The position numbers are program-made. Positions 55,101 through 64,000 of a stretch of 64,000 nucleotides of DNA are shown in pieces (position 1 is the stretch's first letter; each line of letters opens with the position of its first letter). The stretch is taken from assembly GCF_902652985.1 (NCBI RefSeq), contig NC_047028.1:17422001-17486000 (forward strand). The letters run 5' to 3'. The stretch is from Pecten maximus (taxonomy: Eukaryota).

Positions 55101-58100
55101 AAAACCTGACCACATAACAAACTTGACGACACCACAAACCTGACCACATCACAAACCTGACATAACTACAAACCTGACCACATCACAAATCAGAATTTGT
55201 TTTGTTTGTCCCAGTGACAGCTAAGCCTATGTAAAAATGGTGTCCTCAGATGATGGGCCATTCAAGGCTATAGTGCTATCCCACTGACATGTCATTAGTT
55301 TGATATTGTCAGCATTACAACCCCACCTGGTCACAGCTGAACATCAAGGAGAAATCAGCCAGTACTGTGTACTGATACCACAGGTCTTGGTGTACTATGT
55401 TAATAAATGAAGTAATGCCATGAGGCTTAATGGCATAAAAAATAGTTAGAGATAAATATAAAAAATACAGATGTTACAAGTGGATACAACTTCTTTATTT
55501 AAATCTTTTCTCTGACTGAAATAGAGGGCACAATTATGTTTCAAATATCACCAATGTCTGATTTTCACTCCAATGTTTCTGATTTCAGCAACGCCCAAAG
55601 ACAGTTGCTCCTGTTGATTATGAAAACTATGTGACGAAGAACAAATCCATTCTCCACAATGATCCACAGAGAGAAATGCTTACATTCCCCCATGACGATG
55701 TTGTCATTCCAGTAAGTCTTTTTAATATAACTTTACAATATATATTTATGAAAGGATTATATTATAAGGTGAGATAAATACAATCATAAAAGTTTGTTTT
55801 CAAAAGTTTTCAAAACATTCATATTACATGATTTAAGGTAAAGTTTATCAAGTTCAAACTGAGGCTAAGAAAAGGATGATTACTTATTGAAGAAATACTG
55901 TTTTTCTTGCAGCCTCCCACCCCTGCCAAAAGGATGCGAACAGTCCAGAGTTCGGTGCCAGTGTCTGCCTCACAGGAAGCCACCAGCCTGTTGGTCTGTG
56001 AGGCTATTAAGTCCTACACGGACAGCTGTCACATGGTCAAATACAAATACAGCAAGTACTCTGGCTCCTACCAACAGTTACCATGGTAAGTAATGTTACC
56101 TAGCAACAGTTACCGTGGTAAGTAAGGTTACCTATCATCAGTTACCATGGTAAGTAATGTTACCTAGCAACAGTTACCGTGGTAAGTAAGGTTACCTATC
56201 ATCAGTTACCATGGTAAGTAACGCTACCTAGCAACAGTTACCATGGTAAGTAAGGTTACCTACCAACTGTTTCCATGGTAAGTAACGCTACCTAGCAACA
56301 GTTACCATGGTAATTAAGGCTACCTAGCAACAGTTACCATGGTAAGTAATGCTACCTATCAACATTTACCTTGGTTAATGTTACCTAGCAACATTTACCA
56401 TGTTAAGTAAGATTACCTAGTAGCAGTTATAATGGTAAGTAAAGTTAAATAGCAACAGTTTCCATGGTAAGTAAGGTTACCTATCAACAGTTACCATGGT
56501 AAGTAAGGTTACCTATCAACAGTTTCCATGGTAAGTCAGGTCACCTAGCAAACTTACCATCATGGTAATTAAGAAGACCTAACAACAATAACCATGGTAA
56601 GTTAGGTTAACATAGCAACAGTTACTATGGTAATCTAGGTCACATAGCAACAGTTACTATGGTAATCTAGGTCACATAGCAACAGTTACTATGGTAATCT
56701 AGGTCACATAGCAACAGTTTCCATGAAAAGTAAGACCATCTATCAACGGTTATCATGGATAGCAATGTCATATAGCAATAGTTATCATGGTAGGTCACCT
56801 AAAAAGCTACATAGTAACAGTTGACATTATAAAGCAATCCAGCTGTGCTTTCCTTGGTAAGGTATGGTAACTAAATAACAATAAGTTATCAAGTGAAGCA
56901 CCTAGCAACAGCAATTGAGGTTTGTTAGGCCGTCTAACATTTAACCATAATAACTTGGGCCACCTAGTTACAGTAAGTAGTAAGTGGTCTCCCTTAACTT
57001 AATATTTACCACAGTAAATGGTACTCTGTCAATATCAAGTATATAACCTAGTATCAGATACATAACGTTTCATCTGCTTCAGACTAAAAAATTGAAACAA
57101 CAAAATAGTTGTCAAATATATATGATAACAGAGATGTATTTAACAAATACATACAAGCCGTTATAACAATGGTGTATTGTATTATTTTTCAGTGTGAAGA
57201 AACCAGATCCATTACCTAAACATGTGTTTGAAATAGATGCGGAGGAAGAAGAAAAGGAAGATGTATGTGTTTTGTCATTTTATAATCTCTATGATGAAAT
57301 ATTCTTAAATCAATGTTTGGACAGATACATGGACAATTTACTGCTGAGGATATTTTTGTCAGAGGGTGAATTCTTTTTGGGCAAAATATCAGTGTGAAGC
57401 TGTATGTATTTATCCATGATAGATAAAGCAGAAAATATTGGGATCCAGTTAATTGTGTTGGAACTTGTTCAAATTTTTATGATTTTAAGGTTATTTCATA
57501 GTTTCAGGATTTATTAAAGTAATTTCATAGTCTCATGTTGTTTTGAATTATAAAACATTGCCTTAGATTTCCTGATGTTATTTCTTCAAAATCTATTTCC
57601 ATAGAAAATGAACCACAGATGTGTTTAATGTTTTATTGATATGATAAATGCCTTGTATTTGATCGTATTCCAGGACATGTCTAATCGAAGCTCCATGGCA
57701 ACTACGATTGCCAAGGAAGGATGGTTATTCAAGGGGCCAGATGGAGGAAAAGAGAACATCATCAGCTTCACAAGGGTAATTATTTAGAGTTATCTGCCCT
57801 TGACTGTTAAGTGCCAGACAGACCAAACATCCTTTCTACTTGTAAGGATTTTTATTTTGTATTAATTGTACTATTATTTCTTTTGATATGAATAAAATAC
57901 TTGTATTTTGAAGTACATTGCTGTATTTTGATTGAAAATACTTTAGAATGAAAATTGACTGTTATTGCAAATGAAATGATGGTTTTTTGATTTTCAGCAA
58001 TTTAAACGACGTTTCTTTGCCCTCAAACAAGAATCAGATTTTTCCTATGTGATGAACATCTACAAAGATGACCGCAAGCTGGACACTAAGGGAGCCATAT

Positions 58101-61100: not shown

Positions 61101-64000
61101 ATCATTAAAACTAGACACAGTTCAGTAAGTGGATATATGAAAGATTTTGGGATCAAAATTCCAAGGTTTGTAGACACCGGATTATTTTTTTAACTTCCAA
61201 GATGAATAATATGAAAATAAATCAATAAGTTATAATGATAAATCACAATGTTTCACTCACAATCGATTGAAGACTACTTTCCTTTAGGTTAAAAACTTAT
61301 GTTACTATAGTAATCTGTAGTCCCAGGTTATATGTCCTAGTGAAGCCACATAGAAACAGGGTCCTTAGTTGCATTAGTGTTACCGTAGTAAACATTAGTG
61401 TATGTTTTAGTCTGTCAATTCTCCCCATTGATCCCTAAGGTTTTTGATGATCTCAGTTACTTAGACAGAAGAAGTTTGACCGTAGGTAATTATAACTTGC
61501 GATTGCAGAGGTGTGTGATGGATGATGAGGATGAAGAAGAAGACGGCGATGAGATCGCTGTTTATCCTCCACAATACCGCGAGCGATTCATGCTGCGGTT
61601 ACTGGATTTCAAACTCAAACTCCAATTTAACCTTGGAGATGAGTTGAAGTGTGGAAACAAATTGGTTAATGTAAGTATTTCTACTAGTACTTAAAAATCA
61701 TATGGTCATGTTTAGGGATGACTTCTTAACCTCAAAGGCATACAAATGTATCATCTTAAGATTTATGTCAGTATTAAAGAACAATAAAAAGTTTCTTAGA
61801 GCAAATAATGATGATGATGCTAAAGTTAGAGACATCAAAAACTAAAACTGACCTGCTGAACCCATCGTAGCACGGGATCTTATTGTATACAAGTTAGCTA
61901 TTTTCCCTTTTATGTCCCTGCTACTGTTGTGAAAGAGATTTAAAGTTTTCTGTCCATCCTGTCGGTCCGTACCTGATGTCTGTTTTGTCTGGTTAGATTT
62001 TGGACTTGACTCCATTTCTTTTAATAATGCTTGTCACATCAATATCAAATTGTTACGCAGGTTTTAATTTGAGAATATAATGGCCCATGGCCATTGTTTA
62101 TATTTATCTGAATTTTGGTTTGTGGCTTGTAAGGACATGCTACATTTCAAGTTTACATGTCACTGTGTTACTGACAGAGCTATGGTCTTGTTGGAGACAC
62201 ATATTAAATATGCTTCTTTTCATTAGTATTTTTCAGAATTATTTTTAAATTTGATATTCTATTATTTTCAAAAATTTGTACATTTCAGCCTGAGCCGTTC
62301 TTTTTGACGTTCTGTCTTTATGATGCTAAAGAGGGAAGGAAGATATCCGAGGATTTCCACATGGACCCTAACGACCCCCAGATCAAAGACATGATTCCCT
62401 CAGATGTTCTCCATGCCTCCGATCGACTACATACAGTGGAGGGCAAGACCTCCTCTCCAGACCTCAGGGGACTGGATGAAAAGTGGATCCTAGCTCAGAA
62501 CAGACAGGTATAGGGCTAAAAGGCTGGGGAAGGGGAGGGTTTTGAACCGCTCTGATAAGTATTACAAGGGTTAAAATGGATACACTGGGAATGGAGTGGA
62601 AAGTTTTGAACCGCTCTGATAAGTATTACAAGGGTTAAAATGGAAACACTGGGAATGGAGGGGAAGTTTGTGGCCATTCTTTGGAGGATTAGATGGAGTC
62701 AACACAGAAATATTAGGCTGAAGGAAGTTTGTAGTAATTATTTGGAATGCAGGTTTTCTTTGTCATAAATTTGATATTATGATGTAATACAGGGTGTGTT
62801 TTCTGTGTCGTTTACCTGATGTTTTATTGTATTACAGGGTGTGTTTTCTGAGACGTTTATCCGATGTTTTATTTCATTACAGGGTGTGTTTTCCGTAATA
62901 TGCTGCCACTCTGAGGTTTACCTGTTTGTAAGGATAGAAAAGGTCTTACAGGGTCCACTCTCCCAGGCCACAGACACGTACCTCAAGGTCGGTGAGGCTG
63001 GGCGTACAGCCGCAAAACAGTATAAACAAATGAAACAGCTGTGCAATAACATTGGTCATTACAGAATGCCATTTGGTTGGGCGGCAAGGTAGGCATTTAA
63101 CTCTACCTGAATATACCTAAACTATAACTATAATAACATTTGAAAAAATATTAAAATTGTAAAATATTTTTAGCATTTAATATTTTGTTTTAGGGTTTAA
63201 ATGCAATCGGAAAGTGAAGGATATAATAGAAATCAGTCTGGAAATGTTAAATTAATTCATGAATTAAAATCGCACTGCAACAATAGATATGGTTTTGCTA
63301 TTATCATGTGATGCTTCATTTTCAGACAACTTGTGTCATCTAATTATGGTCCGTCTGAACTCAAGATCTACAGACATGAGGGGTCGAAACTATCCGAGGA
63401 AGATATCATCAAACATCTACAAGATCTCAGAAAGTAGGAAATACAACCAAAATTCTGCCATAGGAAGCTTCACAATTACTGTTATATAAAATCTTATATA
63501 TCATGTCATCATATCAATTAACGTTACAGACTTATTAGAAAGTTAGCCATAAACTAACAATTATAAATGGCACCTGGTCGACGAATAGGTAGGATTAATA
63601 TAAATATGAAGTAGAGGGGGATAAATCATAGTCTAGTGCAGGGTAGTCAAAGAATAGCGGTTCAAGTTCAATATCTAAGATTAATTTACAAAGAATATTA
63701 TAAGGAAGTGGTTTGAGCCAAGAGGACAGTTAAAAGGGTACAGAGTATTTTAGTAAAAATATGGGTTCAAGTACTAAAGCCATTACTTGTTTAATCATTA
63801 TTTAGTGTGATACTTTCTGTGCCAAATGACATATATGTTAAAATCATGTGTATTTTCATTATTATACAATTATTTTTCTATGTAAATTATCATAAAAACA
63901 TATATCTTACAATTCTTAATGACCCACAGTATGAAATCTCCCTCACTTTTTGTTCCATGTTAAAGTTTTTTTGTTTTTTTTTAAAATATTTTTACTAAAT

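What the first reader, a model, noticed from the sequence alone, without database searches (positions are those of the whole stretch)
55551..62893. Recurrent tandem duplication of exon boundaries across the DOCK gene
Seen: five boundaries among exons 2-13 are themselves duplicated or amplified. They are the exon 2 acceptor (55551-55588), exon 3 donor (32-bp array), exon 7 donor (39-bp array), exon 9 acceptor (56-bp period) and exon 12 acceptor (45-bp x3). Further repeats start shortly after the exon 8 and exon 11 donors and the candidate exon at 45031, and the DGK start-codon array fits the same theme. In each case expansion runs into the intron and the reading frame is preserved. Inference: a mutational bias seeds minisatellites at splice junctions (e.g. 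co-transcriptional R-loops or pausing), and selection then disables or tolerates the decoy sites. This could be an under-described route to intron growth and new alternative splice sites in this lineage.
Basis: partly seen in the sequence, partly recalled or inferred. Interest (0 to 1): 0.72.

Follow-up and report, generated by a model that had tools for sequence, protein, structure and literature searches.

The report
Splice-junction minisatellites in a scallop gene
Several introns of a scallop DOCK9-like gene begin or end with short tandem repeats that copy the edge of the neighbouring exon and its splice signal, a kind of repeat already known from human genes that here can mostly be explained by this genome's very heavy repeat load and short introns.

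Summary
The window is from a scallop-like bivalve, not human. It holds a DOCK9-like gene on the + strand (exon 1 at 21900, exons 2-13 at 55589-63433) and exon 1 of a DGK delta-like gene on the - strand.

The core observation is real:
- A 32-bp x 22.7 array copies the last 19 nt of exon 3 plus its donor.
- A 39/78-bp array starts in the last 12 nt of exon 7.
- A 45-bp triplication copies the exon 12 acceptor.
- A 56-bp pair ends 3 nt before exon 9.
- The exon 2 "duplication" is a marginal 16-nt micro-repeat.
- The "DGK start-codon array" was not found.

The exon edges are conserved across molluscs, so the arrays derive from the junctions.

Arrays cover 21.5% of the window and 28.6% of introns 2-12. 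Under a seed model, 3-5 junction hits compare with 0.7-2.4 expected (nominal P 0.03-0.16, post hoc). Against random intronic positions there is no excess. Nothing supports a junction-specific trigger: no shared hairpin, and 0 of 18 arrays in intron 1 carry splice-like motifs.

This is the known F7/IFI6/CBS type of junction-spanning minisatellite, unusually recurrent in one gene. A genome-wide test is still needed.

The parts
21900..21998 (+). DOCK9-like exon 1 (start codon, 33 codons, gtaagt donor)
   Evidence: tblastn to Tegillarca and Gigantopelta proteins; junction
55549..55585 (+). Micro-duplication (about 18-20 nt x2, 14 of 16 matched with a 2-nt gap) ending 3 nt before the exon 2 acceptor; wholly intronic
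   Evidence: not called by TRF at score 30
55589..55711 (+). DOCK9-like exon 2
   Evidence: tblastn; Pfam DOCK_C-D_N, E=4.6e-11; junctions
55913..56085 (+). DOCK9-like exon 3; its last 19 nt form part of the first unit of the 32-bp array
   Evidence: tblastn; Pfam DOCK_C-D_N, E=1.4e-11
56067..56792 (+). 32-bp minisatellite, 22.7 copies, straddling the exon 3 donor; 16 donor-like decoys, 10 with the same 9-mer as the authentic donor
   Evidence: TRF; the repeat finder D1; decoy list
57193..57262 (+). DOCK9-like exon 4
   Evidence: reading of the sequence; junctions and phase; residue numbering of homologues leaves room for it
57674..57775 (+). DOCK9-like exon 5 (start of the PH region)
   Evidence: tblastn
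57998..58129 (+). DOCK9-like exon 6, with a GC donor (AAG|gcaagt)
   Evidence: tblastn
58341..58506 (+). DOCK9-like exon 7 (end of the PH domain); its last 12 nt are homologous to the 39-bp unit
   Evidence: tblastn; Pfam PH, E=6.3e-7; gapped alignment
58495..58841 (+). 39-bp minisatellite with a 78-bp higher-order period, 8.6 copies, beginning inside or at the exon 7 donor
   Evidence: TRF; the repeat finder D3
58842..59112 (+). Degenerate tail of the 39-bp array; six donor-like sites, one identical to the authentic 9-mer at +488
   Evidence: the repeat finder D5
59383..59450 (+). DOCK9-like exon 8
   Evidence: tblastn to Argopecten
59478..59983 (+). Intron 8 repeats that do not touch a boundary: 14 bp x2 (59478-59505) and a G-rich 42 bp x9 array (59606-59983)
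   Evidence: TRF
59981..60363 (.). MITE-like insert with 28-nt terminal inverted repeats (82% complementary) inside the G-rich part of intron 8
   Evidence: the repeat finder, inverted
60392..60496 (+). G-rich 21-bp repeat in intron 8; not at a boundary
   Evidence: TRF
60829..60924 (+). Two-copy 56-bp duplication ending 3 nt before exon 9; the upstream copy has lost the AG
   Evidence: the repeat finder D9; 39 of 40 identity and 0 of 1500 controls at 36 or more; register print
60928..61011 (+). DOCK9-like exon 9
   Evidence: tblastn
61509..61670 (+). DOCK9-like exon 10
   Evidence: tblastn
62289..62507 (+). DOCK9-like exon 11
   Evidence: 95% identity to Argopecten irradians DOCK9-like
62531..62669 (+). 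64-bp x2 repeat starting 23 nt after the exon 11 donor; does not include the boundary
   Evidence: TRF; the repeat finder D7
62753..62893 (+). 45-bp copies (three in register, 2.5 by TRF) straddling the exon 12 acceptor; decoy acceptors at -45 (open in frame, 15 codons) and -90 (in-frame TGA)
   Evidence: TRF; the repeat finder D6
62883..63088 (+). DOCK9-like exon 12
   Evidence: 100% identity to Argopecten over 70 residues
63326..63433 (+). DOCK9-like exon 13
   Evidence: tblastn
14494..14643 (-). DGK delta-like exon 1 (start codon to gtaagt donor); no repeat at the start codon
   Evidence: 98% identity to Argopecten DGK delta-like; tblastn; TRF at score 30 finds none here

Best explanation
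These are ordinary junction-spanning minisatellites, made by the same process that fills the rest of this locus with tandem repeats.

Step 1 (inferred): short tandem duplications of about 20-60 bp arise by replication slippage or misaligned repair throughout the locus.

Step 2 (shown by anatomy): some seeds happen to straddle an exon-intron junction. A tandem duplication always leaves one intact junction contiguous with the rest of the exon, so such seeds can survive. The functional copy is the 5'-most for donors and the 3'-most for acceptors. The extra copies therefore necessarily lie in the intron.

Step 3 (shown): unequal exchange then amplifies some seeds, to 22.7 copies at exon 3 and to a 78-bp higher-order repeat at exon 7. 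This adds roughly a fifth of the intronic DNA in introns 2-12.

Step 4 (inferred): the exon copy is held by purifying selection while the intronic copies drift. Some decoy splice sites are still perfect and others are already dead.

Step 5 (inferred from the F7 precedent, not tested here): the exon-proximal donor is chosen by 5'-to-3' scanning or exon definition. Use of any exon 3 decoy would meet an in-frame TAA two codons into the intron. The -45 decoy acceptor of exon 12 could add 15 in-frame codons.

The recurrence in one gene follows from very high array density combined with short introns. A 30-60 bp seed in a 200-600 bp intron has a 10-45% chance of straddling an end.
For: Background density:
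- 36 TRF arrays cover 13,778 of 64,000 bases, or 21.5%.
- 1,783 of 6,232 bases in introns 2-12 lie in arrays.

Seed model:
- Per-array straddling probabilities are 0.03-0.47.
- Strict set: 3 of 25 arrays touch a boundary against 1.16-1.25 expected, P=0.08-0.10.
- With five two-copy repeats added: 4 of 30 against 2.1-2.3 expected, P=0.13-0.16.
- All tiers together: 5 against 2.38 expected, P=0.058.

Direction of derivation: the exon-side sequence at all four junctions is conserved in Argopecten, Tegillarca or Gigantopelta proteins, so the exons are older than the arrays.

Independent local origin: the units differ from each other. For 7 of 7 units tested there were no hits outside their own locus in the window.

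Different ages: copy identity ranges from 81% (exon 3) to 98% (exon 9).

No junction-specific trigger:
- DNA hairpin potential appears only at exon 3 (z=-1.95). It is absent at exons 7, 9 and 12.
- 0 of 18 intron 1 arrays carry a strong donor-like or acceptor-like motif on the sense strand.

Mixed decoy states fit drift.

Precedent: the F7 IVS7 37-bp minisatellite, whose first unit spans the exon 7 junction. Its pseudo-sites are functional but silent, and the upstream-most donor is used. IFI6, CBS, LMNB2 and PDGF are similar (PMC1557585, abstract and introduction/discussion passages).
Against: - Every seed-model variant shows an excess, never a deficit. It is 2- to 2.5-fold with no limit on exonic extent. 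It is about 3- to 4-fold if seeds may carry at most 20 exonic nt, with P=0.026-0.029.
- The gene-wide unconditional model gives 3 against 0.68 expected, P=0.032.
- Arrays are also about twice as dense in the short introns 2-12 as in intron 1: 7 against 3.5 expected, P=0.069.
- One of only 18 micro-duplication loci ends 3 nt from the exon 2 acceptor, against 0.10 expected.
- Straddling seeds create decoy splice sites and should be more harmful than intronic ones, so the neutral expectation is if anything too high.
- The sample is one gene. There is no RNA evidence and no sister-species DNA.
Confidence: 0.65

Rival explanations
1. One reading: exon-intron junctions are preferred places for the initial duplication. 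The cause would be co-transcriptional R-loops, polymerase pausing, or (my addition, by inference) the edges of exon-positioned nucleosomes. Minisatellites would then be seeded there more often than elsewhere in introns.
For: - A consistent 2- to 4-fold excess over seed-model expectation: 3 against 0.74-1.25, 4 against 1.3-2.3 and 5 against 2.38, with nominal P 0.026-0.16.
- The unconditional model gives P=0.032.
- The exon 2 micro-duplication abuts the acceptor of a 33.6-kb intron, against 0.10 expected.
- Several arrays in this gene are G-rich on the sense strand, with GC skew up to +0.65. Such sequence is considered R-loop-prone (my recollection, not tested).
Against: - There is no excess against random intronic positions: about 6.9 of 24 expected, 3-5 seen.
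- The P values are nominal, depend on the model and are post hoc, from a gene picked because the pattern was noticed.
- No common structure at the four junctions.
- The junction arrays themselves are not G-rich.
- 21 of the 25 strict arrays have no relation to any known boundary. That count is 18 in intron 1 plus 4 in introns 8 and 11, less the 1 of these scored as touching (my reading of the list).
- The DGK start-codon case was not confirmed.
Confidence: 0.2
2. The arrays are kept because they are useful. Reiterated donor sites would recruit U1 snRNP to strengthen exon 3 definition or suppress premature polyadenylation in AT-rich introns. Tandem acceptors at exon 12 would give a regulated 15-residue insertion isoform.
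For: - 10 decoy donors keep a 9-mer identical to the authentic site despite 81% overall unit identity.
- The -45 copy at exon 12 is open in frame and keeps a perfect acceptor.
Against: - Only 2 of the 4-5 sites keep strong decoys. The exon 9 copy lost its AG, and the in-array exon 7 decoys score below 7 of 9.
- The -90 copy at exon 12 has an in-frame TGA.
- The Argopecten protein model is colinear across the exon 11/12 junction with no insertion.
- Recent amplification keeps identical motifs in an array without any selection.
- There are no RNA data.
Confidence: 0.07
3. The arrays came first and the present exon ends or splice sites were recruited from them. Alternatively, the arrays are transposon-borne satellites or assembly artefacts that only resemble the exon edge.
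For: Bivalve genomes carry satellite-like arrays on mobile elements (PMC7492417, search listing and abstract start only). A MITE-like insert does sit in intron 8.
Against: - The exon-edge residues are conserved in distant molluscs, so the exon copies are ancestral.
- No unit has a second locus in the window: 0 outside hits for 7 of 7 units.
- Copies differ by 2-19%, more than a haplotype collapse or duplication artefact of 45-56 bp would suggest.
Confidence: 0.04

Closest known systems
Human F7 intron 7 minisatellite (37-bp VNTR whose first unit spans the exon 7-IVS7 boundary); PMC1557585, abstract and passages read
   Same: A tandem array whose exon-adjacent unit contains the last exonic bases plus the donor, so the authentic 5' splice site is followed by identical pseudo-sites in the intron. 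The exon 3 array here has exactly this layout: 19 exonic nt and 10 identical decoys.
   Different: - F7 has 5-9 copies carrying 4 exonic nt; here there are 22.7 copies carrying 19 exonic nt.
- F7 usage (upstream-most site only) was shown experimentally; here it is untested.
- Here several junctions of one gene are affected, including acceptors.
Other junction-spanning minisatellites listed in PMC1557585: IFI6 (6-16) intron 2 with 25 pseudo-donors, CBS intron 13, LMNB2, PDGF intron 4 (passages read; the original papers were not seen)
   Same: The first monomer spans an exon-intron boundary and reiterates the donor. [quoted passage not shown]
   Different: All are single donor-side cases in vertebrates. 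The acceptor-side copies at exons 9 and 12 have no counterpart in that list.
Internal tandem repeats at exon-intron boundaries creating or modifying introns in human segmental duplications (PMC2812944, passages read). Also 'introns from tandem arrays' (Zhuo et al. 2007): only its title phrase was found, cited in 14 papers; the paper itself was not seen.
   Same: Tandem repeats overlapping exon-intron boundaries change gene structure and supply cryptic splice sites.
   Different: Those cases concern new introns or exon changes. Here old introns between conserved exons are lengthened and the coding sequence is unchanged. Table S3 of PMC2812944 could not be seen because supplements are closed.

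Membership tests
Junction-spanning minisatellite (F7 IVS7 type) | Tandem array of a 10-100 bp unit with several copies | tested here: met
   Met for exon 3 (32 bp x22.7), exon 7 (39 bp x8.6) and exon 12 (45 bp x2.5-3). Not met for exon 9 (two copies only) or exon 2 (a micro-duplication not called by TRF).
Junction-spanning minisatellite (F7 IVS7 type) | The terminal monomer spans the exon-intron boundary | tested here: met
   - Exon 3: 19 exonic nt.
- Exon 12: 11 exonic nt.
- Exon 7: 12 exonic nt, by TRF at score 30 and by gapped alignment.
- Exon 9: inconclusive. The identity stops 3 nt before the exon. Beyond that, in-register matches are 7 of 16 by my reading.
- Exon 2: not met.
Junction-spanning minisatellite (F7 IVS7 type) | The authentic splice site is reiterated in the intron | tested here: met
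   - Exon 3: 16 decoys with at least 7 of 9 consensus matches, 10 with a 9-mer identical to the authentic donor.
- Exon 12: two identical ttacag|GGTGTG contexts.
- Exon 7: no site with at least 7 of 9 matches inside 58508-58841; six in the older tail.
- Exon 9: AG lost.
Junction-spanning minisatellite (F7 IVS7 type) | Only, or mainly, the exon-proximal site is used in mRNA | not testable with these tools
   No transcript data are available. The Argopecten protein model is colinear across exons 7-13, but that is another species' gene model.
Junction-spanning minisatellite (F7 IVS7 type) | Copy number varies within the population (VNTR) | not testable with these tools
   Only a single sequence is available.
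DOCK-C/D subfamily (DOCK9-like, zizimin-type) | N-terminal DOCK_C-D_N domain followed by a PH domain | tested here: met
   Searched exon by exon against Pfam: exons 2 and 3 match PF11878 (E=4.6e-11 and 1.4e-11, above the cutoff) and exon 7 matches PF00169 (E=6.3e-7, above the cutoff).
DOCK-C/D subfamily (DOCK9-like, zizimin-type) | DHR-1 (C2) and DHR-2 catalytic regions | not testable with these tools
   They lie beyond the end of the window. The homologues found carry PF14429 and PF06920 in their precomputed annotation.
Intron gain by tandem duplication of an exonic segment | The intron consists of the duplicated segment between two copies of a splice-competent motif and splits a formerly continuous exon | tested here: not met
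   Each affected intron also holds non-repeat sequence beyond the array. Pre-expansion lengths are about 218-1043 nt. The arrays extend existing introns between separately conserved exons. Whether the intron positions are conserved in other species was not tested.
Transposon-borne satellite-like arrays of bivalves | The same unit is dispersed at other loci and flanked by element termini | tested here: not met
   No hits outside the own locus for 7 of 7 units. This test covers only 64 kb of the genome.

The most novel reading that the evidence does not exclude
In this scallop lineage, exon-intron junctions are genuinely preferred seeding points for minisatellites, by 2-fold or more over an intron-length-matched neutral expectation. 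On this reading, junction-derived arrays would be a major and ongoing route of intron growth. They would also form a standing pool of decoy and alternative splice sites, such as the in-frame 15-codon extension available at exon 12.
Probability: 0.17. Interest if true: 0.6.

Novelty: new member of a known kind. Interest (0 to 1): 0.3.

Why it matters
As it stands, this adds a mollusc example, with both donor-side and acceptor-side cases in one gene, to a small set of junction-spanning minisatellites otherwise known from human genes.

The exon 3 array puts 10 decoy donors identical to the real one downstream of it, each 32 nt apart. That makes it a ready natural test of how an invertebrate spliceosome picks a 5' splice site.

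The locus also shows how much tandem arrays can lengthen introns in a repeat-rich genome: 28.6% of intron 2-12 bases lie in arrays, and about a fifth come from junction copies.

If the modest excess at junctions held up genome-wide, it would point to a position-specific mutational process tied to transcription or chromatin at exon edges, and to a general source of new splice sites.

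Tried and rejected
- Pfam scans for DGK domains: open frames in 1-21900, 136 frames of 45 aa or more. Then 55 frames of 28-44 aa in 1-6760 and 62 minus-strand frames of 22-44 aa in 8700-14500. None gave a DGK or PH hit. DGK exon 1 was then found by reading a minus-strand frame and confirmed. 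Its exon 2 is not in the window.
- ATG at 8701 (minus strand): it is the first unit of the 6759-8695 array.
- Register-tuned micro-duplication test for exon 2: discarded as biased towards exon 2's own layout and replaced by a register-free scan.
- Shared hairpin or palindrome at the junctions: only exon 3 shows one.
- Splice-site sequence as a general seed of arrays: 0 of 18 intron 1 arrays carry such a motif.
- Dispersed or transposon origin of the units: no outside hits.
- Exon ends recruited from older arrays: rejected on conservation.
- Literature searches for a genome-wide test of repeat seeding at splice junctions, or for scallop or bivalve data on it, found none. PMC10078293, PMC12783039 and PMC8096271 were read by passages only and did not bear on it. 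The library is limited, so this is weak evidence of absence.
- The repeat finder does not accept minus-strand regions, so I relied on TRF and on reading the sequence instead.
No sister-species DNA could therefore be compared.

Full report
**What the window is**

The window has no N. It is AT-rich (30-47% G+C) and unusually rich in tandem repeats. TRF at score 50 returns 65 rows, which merge into 36 arrays covering 13,778 of 64,000 bases, or 21.5%.

One exon searched alone (62289-62507) is 95% identical to a DOCK9-like protein of the scallop Argopecten irradians. It is 67-74% identical to proteins of Tegillarca and Gigantopelta. I therefore take the window for a scallop-like bivalve, not for human.

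All protein searches were made exon by exon, and no search of a joined model was run.

**Exon map**

tblastn of the four mollusc proteins against the window, refined at the splice sites, gives these + strand exons:

| Exon | Coordinates | Note |
|---|---|---|
| E1 | 21900-21998 | start codon |
| E2 | 55589-55711 | |
| E3 | 55913-56085 | |
| E4 | 57193-57262 | |
| E5 | 57674-57775 | |
| E6 | 57998-58129 | GC donor |
| E7 | 58341-58506 | |
| E8 | 59383-59450 | |
| E9 | 60928-61011 | |
| E10 | 61509-61670 | |
| E11 | 62289-62507 | |
| E12 | 62883-63088 | |
| E13 | 63326-63433 | |

Intron 1 is 33,590 nt. Introns 2-12 are 201-1,477 nt. Taken one at a time, exons 2 and 3 match Pfam DOCK_C-D_N and exon 7 matches PH, all above the curated cutoffs.

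**The five claimed boundaries**

- Exon 3 donor: a 32-bp array at 56067-56792 with 22.7 copies. Its first unit holds the last 19 exonic nt and the donor.
  - Downstream of the authentic ATG|GTAAGT there are 16 further donor-like sites with at least 7 of 9 matches to MAG|GTRAGT. Ten of them have a 9-mer identical to the authentic site.
  - Reading on from the exon meets TAA two codons into the intron, so any use of a decoy would end the frame early.
- Exon 7 donor: a 39-bp array with a 78-bp higher-order period at 58508-58841.
  - TRF at score 30 starts it at 58495, 12 nt inside the exon. A gapped alignment joins the exon's last 12 nt to the unit across a 10-nt indel.
  - Inside the array no decoy reaches 7 of 9 matches. 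Six do so in an older degenerate tail, one of them identical to the authentic site at +488.
- Exon 12 acceptor: 45-bp copies at 62753-62893. Two upstream copies keep the same ttacag|GGTGTG context.
  - The -45 copy is open in frame for 15 codons. The -90 copy has an in-frame TGA.
- Exon 9 acceptor: two 56-bp copies, 39 of 40 identical, ending 3 nt before the exon. The upstream copy has lost the AG. None of 1,500 control positions reached 36 of 40.
- Exon 2 acceptor: a 16-nt gapped micro-duplication, wholly intronic and not called by TRF.

**The side claims**

- The repeats 'shortly after' the exon 8 and exon 11 donors begin 23-31 nt into the intron, so they do not contain the boundary.
- The candidate exon at 44972-45031 has an open frame and a gtaatt donor, but no homology or Pfam support. 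The next array starts about 100 nt further on.
- DGK: only exon 1 of a DGK delta-like gene is in the window, at 14494-14643 on the minus strand. It is 98% identical to Argopecten. No repeat is called at its start codon.
- The two 50-bp mega-arrays (876-3057 and 6759-8695) lie in DGK intron 1. The ATG at the edge of the second has no support as a start codon.

**Which came first**

At all four junctions the exon-side residues are conserved in other molluscs, so the exon copies are ancestral and the arrays derive from them. The units are unrelated to each other. Each was found only at its own locus in the window: 0 outside hits for 7 of 7 units tested. Copy identity ranges from 81% to 98%. These are therefore separate local events of different ages.

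**Is it more than chance?**

I used three kinds of null.

That would put about 6.9 of 24 boundaries next to an array. Only 3-5 are, so there is no excess.

*(b) A seed model, which I think is fairer.* The first duplication, of unit length u, falls uniformly over the pre-expansion intron. The chance of straddling an end is then about 2(u-1)/(I0+u-1), which comes to 0.03-0.47 per array here.

- Strict set: the 25 in-gene TRF arrays with period of at least 10. I dropped the 10 arrays upstream of exon 1 and one (TA)n run.
- Permissive set: adds five two-copy repeats. I left out D14 as weak. I also left out D4/D8, D5, D16 and D17, which belong to loci already counted.

| Set and assumption | Arrays touching a boundary | Expected | Nominal P |
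|---|---|---|---|
| Strict, no cap on exonic extent (3-nt tolerance) | 3 of 25 | 1.16-1.25 | 0.08-0.10 |
| Permissive, no cap | 4 of 30 | 2.1-2.3 | 0.13-0.16 |
| All tiers, including the exon 2 micro-duplication | 5 | 2.38 | 0.058 |
| Strict, at most 20 exonic nt per seed | 3 | 0.74 | 0.026 |
| Permissive, at most 20 exonic nt per seed | 4 | 1.30 | 0.029 |

The exon 2 micro-duplication is 1 of 18 such loci, with 0.10 expected to end at a boundary. The 20-nt cap sits just above the 19 nt observed. The capped figures were confirmed by Monte Carlo.

*(c) A gene-wide unconditional seed model.* This gives 3 against 0.68 expected, P=0.032. Arrays are also about twice as dense in introns 2-12 as in intron 1: 7 against 3.5 expected, P=0.069.

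So there is a 2- to 4-fold excess under seed models. It is never strong, it depends on the assumptions, and it comes from a gene chosen because the pattern was noticed.

**Tests of a junction-specific trigger**

- Single-strand DNA folding shows modest hairpin potential only at the exon 3 junction (z=-1.95, with 12 of 200 shuffles folding as well). This rests on a 12-nt palindrome that I read in the sequence. Exons 7, 9 and 12 show none.
- If splice-site sequence itself seeded arrays, arrays far from exons should carry it. None of the 18 arrays in intron 1 has a strong donor-like or acceptor-like motif on the sense strand. The only 2 of 25 that do are the ones sitting on real junctions.

**Most likely mechanism**

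This is ordinary minisatellite birth and growth in a genome with a very high rate of it, combined with short introns.

- A tandem duplication that straddles a junction leaves one intact junction attached to the exon. It is therefore tolerated, and the extra copies can only lie in the intron.
- That accounts for 'expansion into the intron' and 'frame preserved' without any special process.
- Only 2 of the 4 unit lengths (39 and 45, but not 32 or 56) are multiples of three.
- The mixture of perfect and dead decoys fits drift after amplification.
- How the correct site is chosen was not tested here. By analogy with F7 (next section), I expect the exon-proximal donor to be used.

**Comparison with what is known**

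The layout is that of the human F7 intron 7 minisatellite, whose first 37-bp unit spans the exon 7 boundary. Its pseudo-sites are functional but silent, because the upstream-most donor is selected by 5'-to-3' scanning. The same paper lists IFI6 (25 pseudo-sites, the two proximal ones also used), CBS, LMNB2 and PDGF (PMC1557585; abstract and passages read).

Tandem repeats at exon-intron boundaries that change gene structure are also reported for human segmental duplications (PMC2812944, passages). Its supplementary table of cases could not be seen.

For scale, a human reference minisatellite set covers 0.52% of that genome (PMC8096271, passage), against 21.5% of this window. The definitions differ, so this is only a rough contrast.

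I found no paper that tests genome-wide whether minisatellites are seeded preferentially at splice junctions, and none on this in scallops. The library is partial.

**What stayed unchecked**

- No other part of this genome, no sister-species DNA and no transcript data were available.
- Full-length DOCK9-like proteins longer than 2,000 residues were outside the length range of the protein search. Annotated isoforms of this species therefore could not be inspected for decoy-derived insertions.

**Verdict**

It is a new, multi-site example of a known kind of repeat.

The proposed junction-specific mutational bias is neither shown nor excluded by one gene. The data lean towards the ordinary explanation.

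Noticed in passing
window 14494-14643 (-) and 21900-21998 (+): DGK delta-like exon 1 and DOCK9-like exon 1 lie head to head about 7.3 kb apart. The Argopecten homologues of both are reported from a contig of the same length (39,156,874 bp), which suggests conserved linkage.
   Followed up: partly
window 876-3057 and 6759-8695: Two very large, very homogeneous 50-bp arrays (44 copies at 97% matches and 38.9 copies at 95%) lie in DGK intron 1. On the DGK sense strand each unit of the second array carries an AAG|GTATGA donor-like motif, and its first unit begins with an ATG.
   Followed up: partly
window 33295-34313, 45134-46186, 50234-51389, 59606-59983, 60392-60496: Five G-rich arrays all have their G-rich strand on the DOCK sense strand. 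GC skew reaches +0.65, and there is a run of 68 G at 33542-33609. One C/A-rich array (54350-55189) goes the other way. Possible transcription-linked strand asymmetry; not tested.
   Followed up: no
window 59981-60363: A MITE-like insert with 28-nt terminal inverted repeats (82% complementary), flanked by TA by my reading, splits the G-rich repeat region of intron 8.
   Followed up: partly
window 18021-19081: A foldback-like structure lies between the two genes. Two blocks of about 22-bp GGATATCC-containing subrepeats form long inverted arms (119-131 nt, 80-91% complementary) around a centre of about 400 nt.
   Followed up: partly
window 58130-58135: Intron 6 of the DOCK9-like gene uses a GC donor (AAG|gcaagt). 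A GT eight bases downstream would break the frame with exon 7.
   Followed up: partly
window 44972-45031: An open 20-codon frame starting with ATG and ending at a gtaatt donor in phase 0 would be compatible with splicing to exon 2 as an alternative first exon. It has no Pfam or homology support.
   Followed up: partly
window 62838-62882: The -45 decoy acceptor before exon 12 would add 15 in-frame codons with no stop, making it a candidate alternative 3' splice site. The Argopecten model lacks such an insertion.
   Followed up: partly
window 56067-56100: Where exon 3 has TAC (a tyrosine conserved in other molluscs), the array consensus has TAG. Conversion from the array into the exon copy would therefore create a stop codon.
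   Followed up: no
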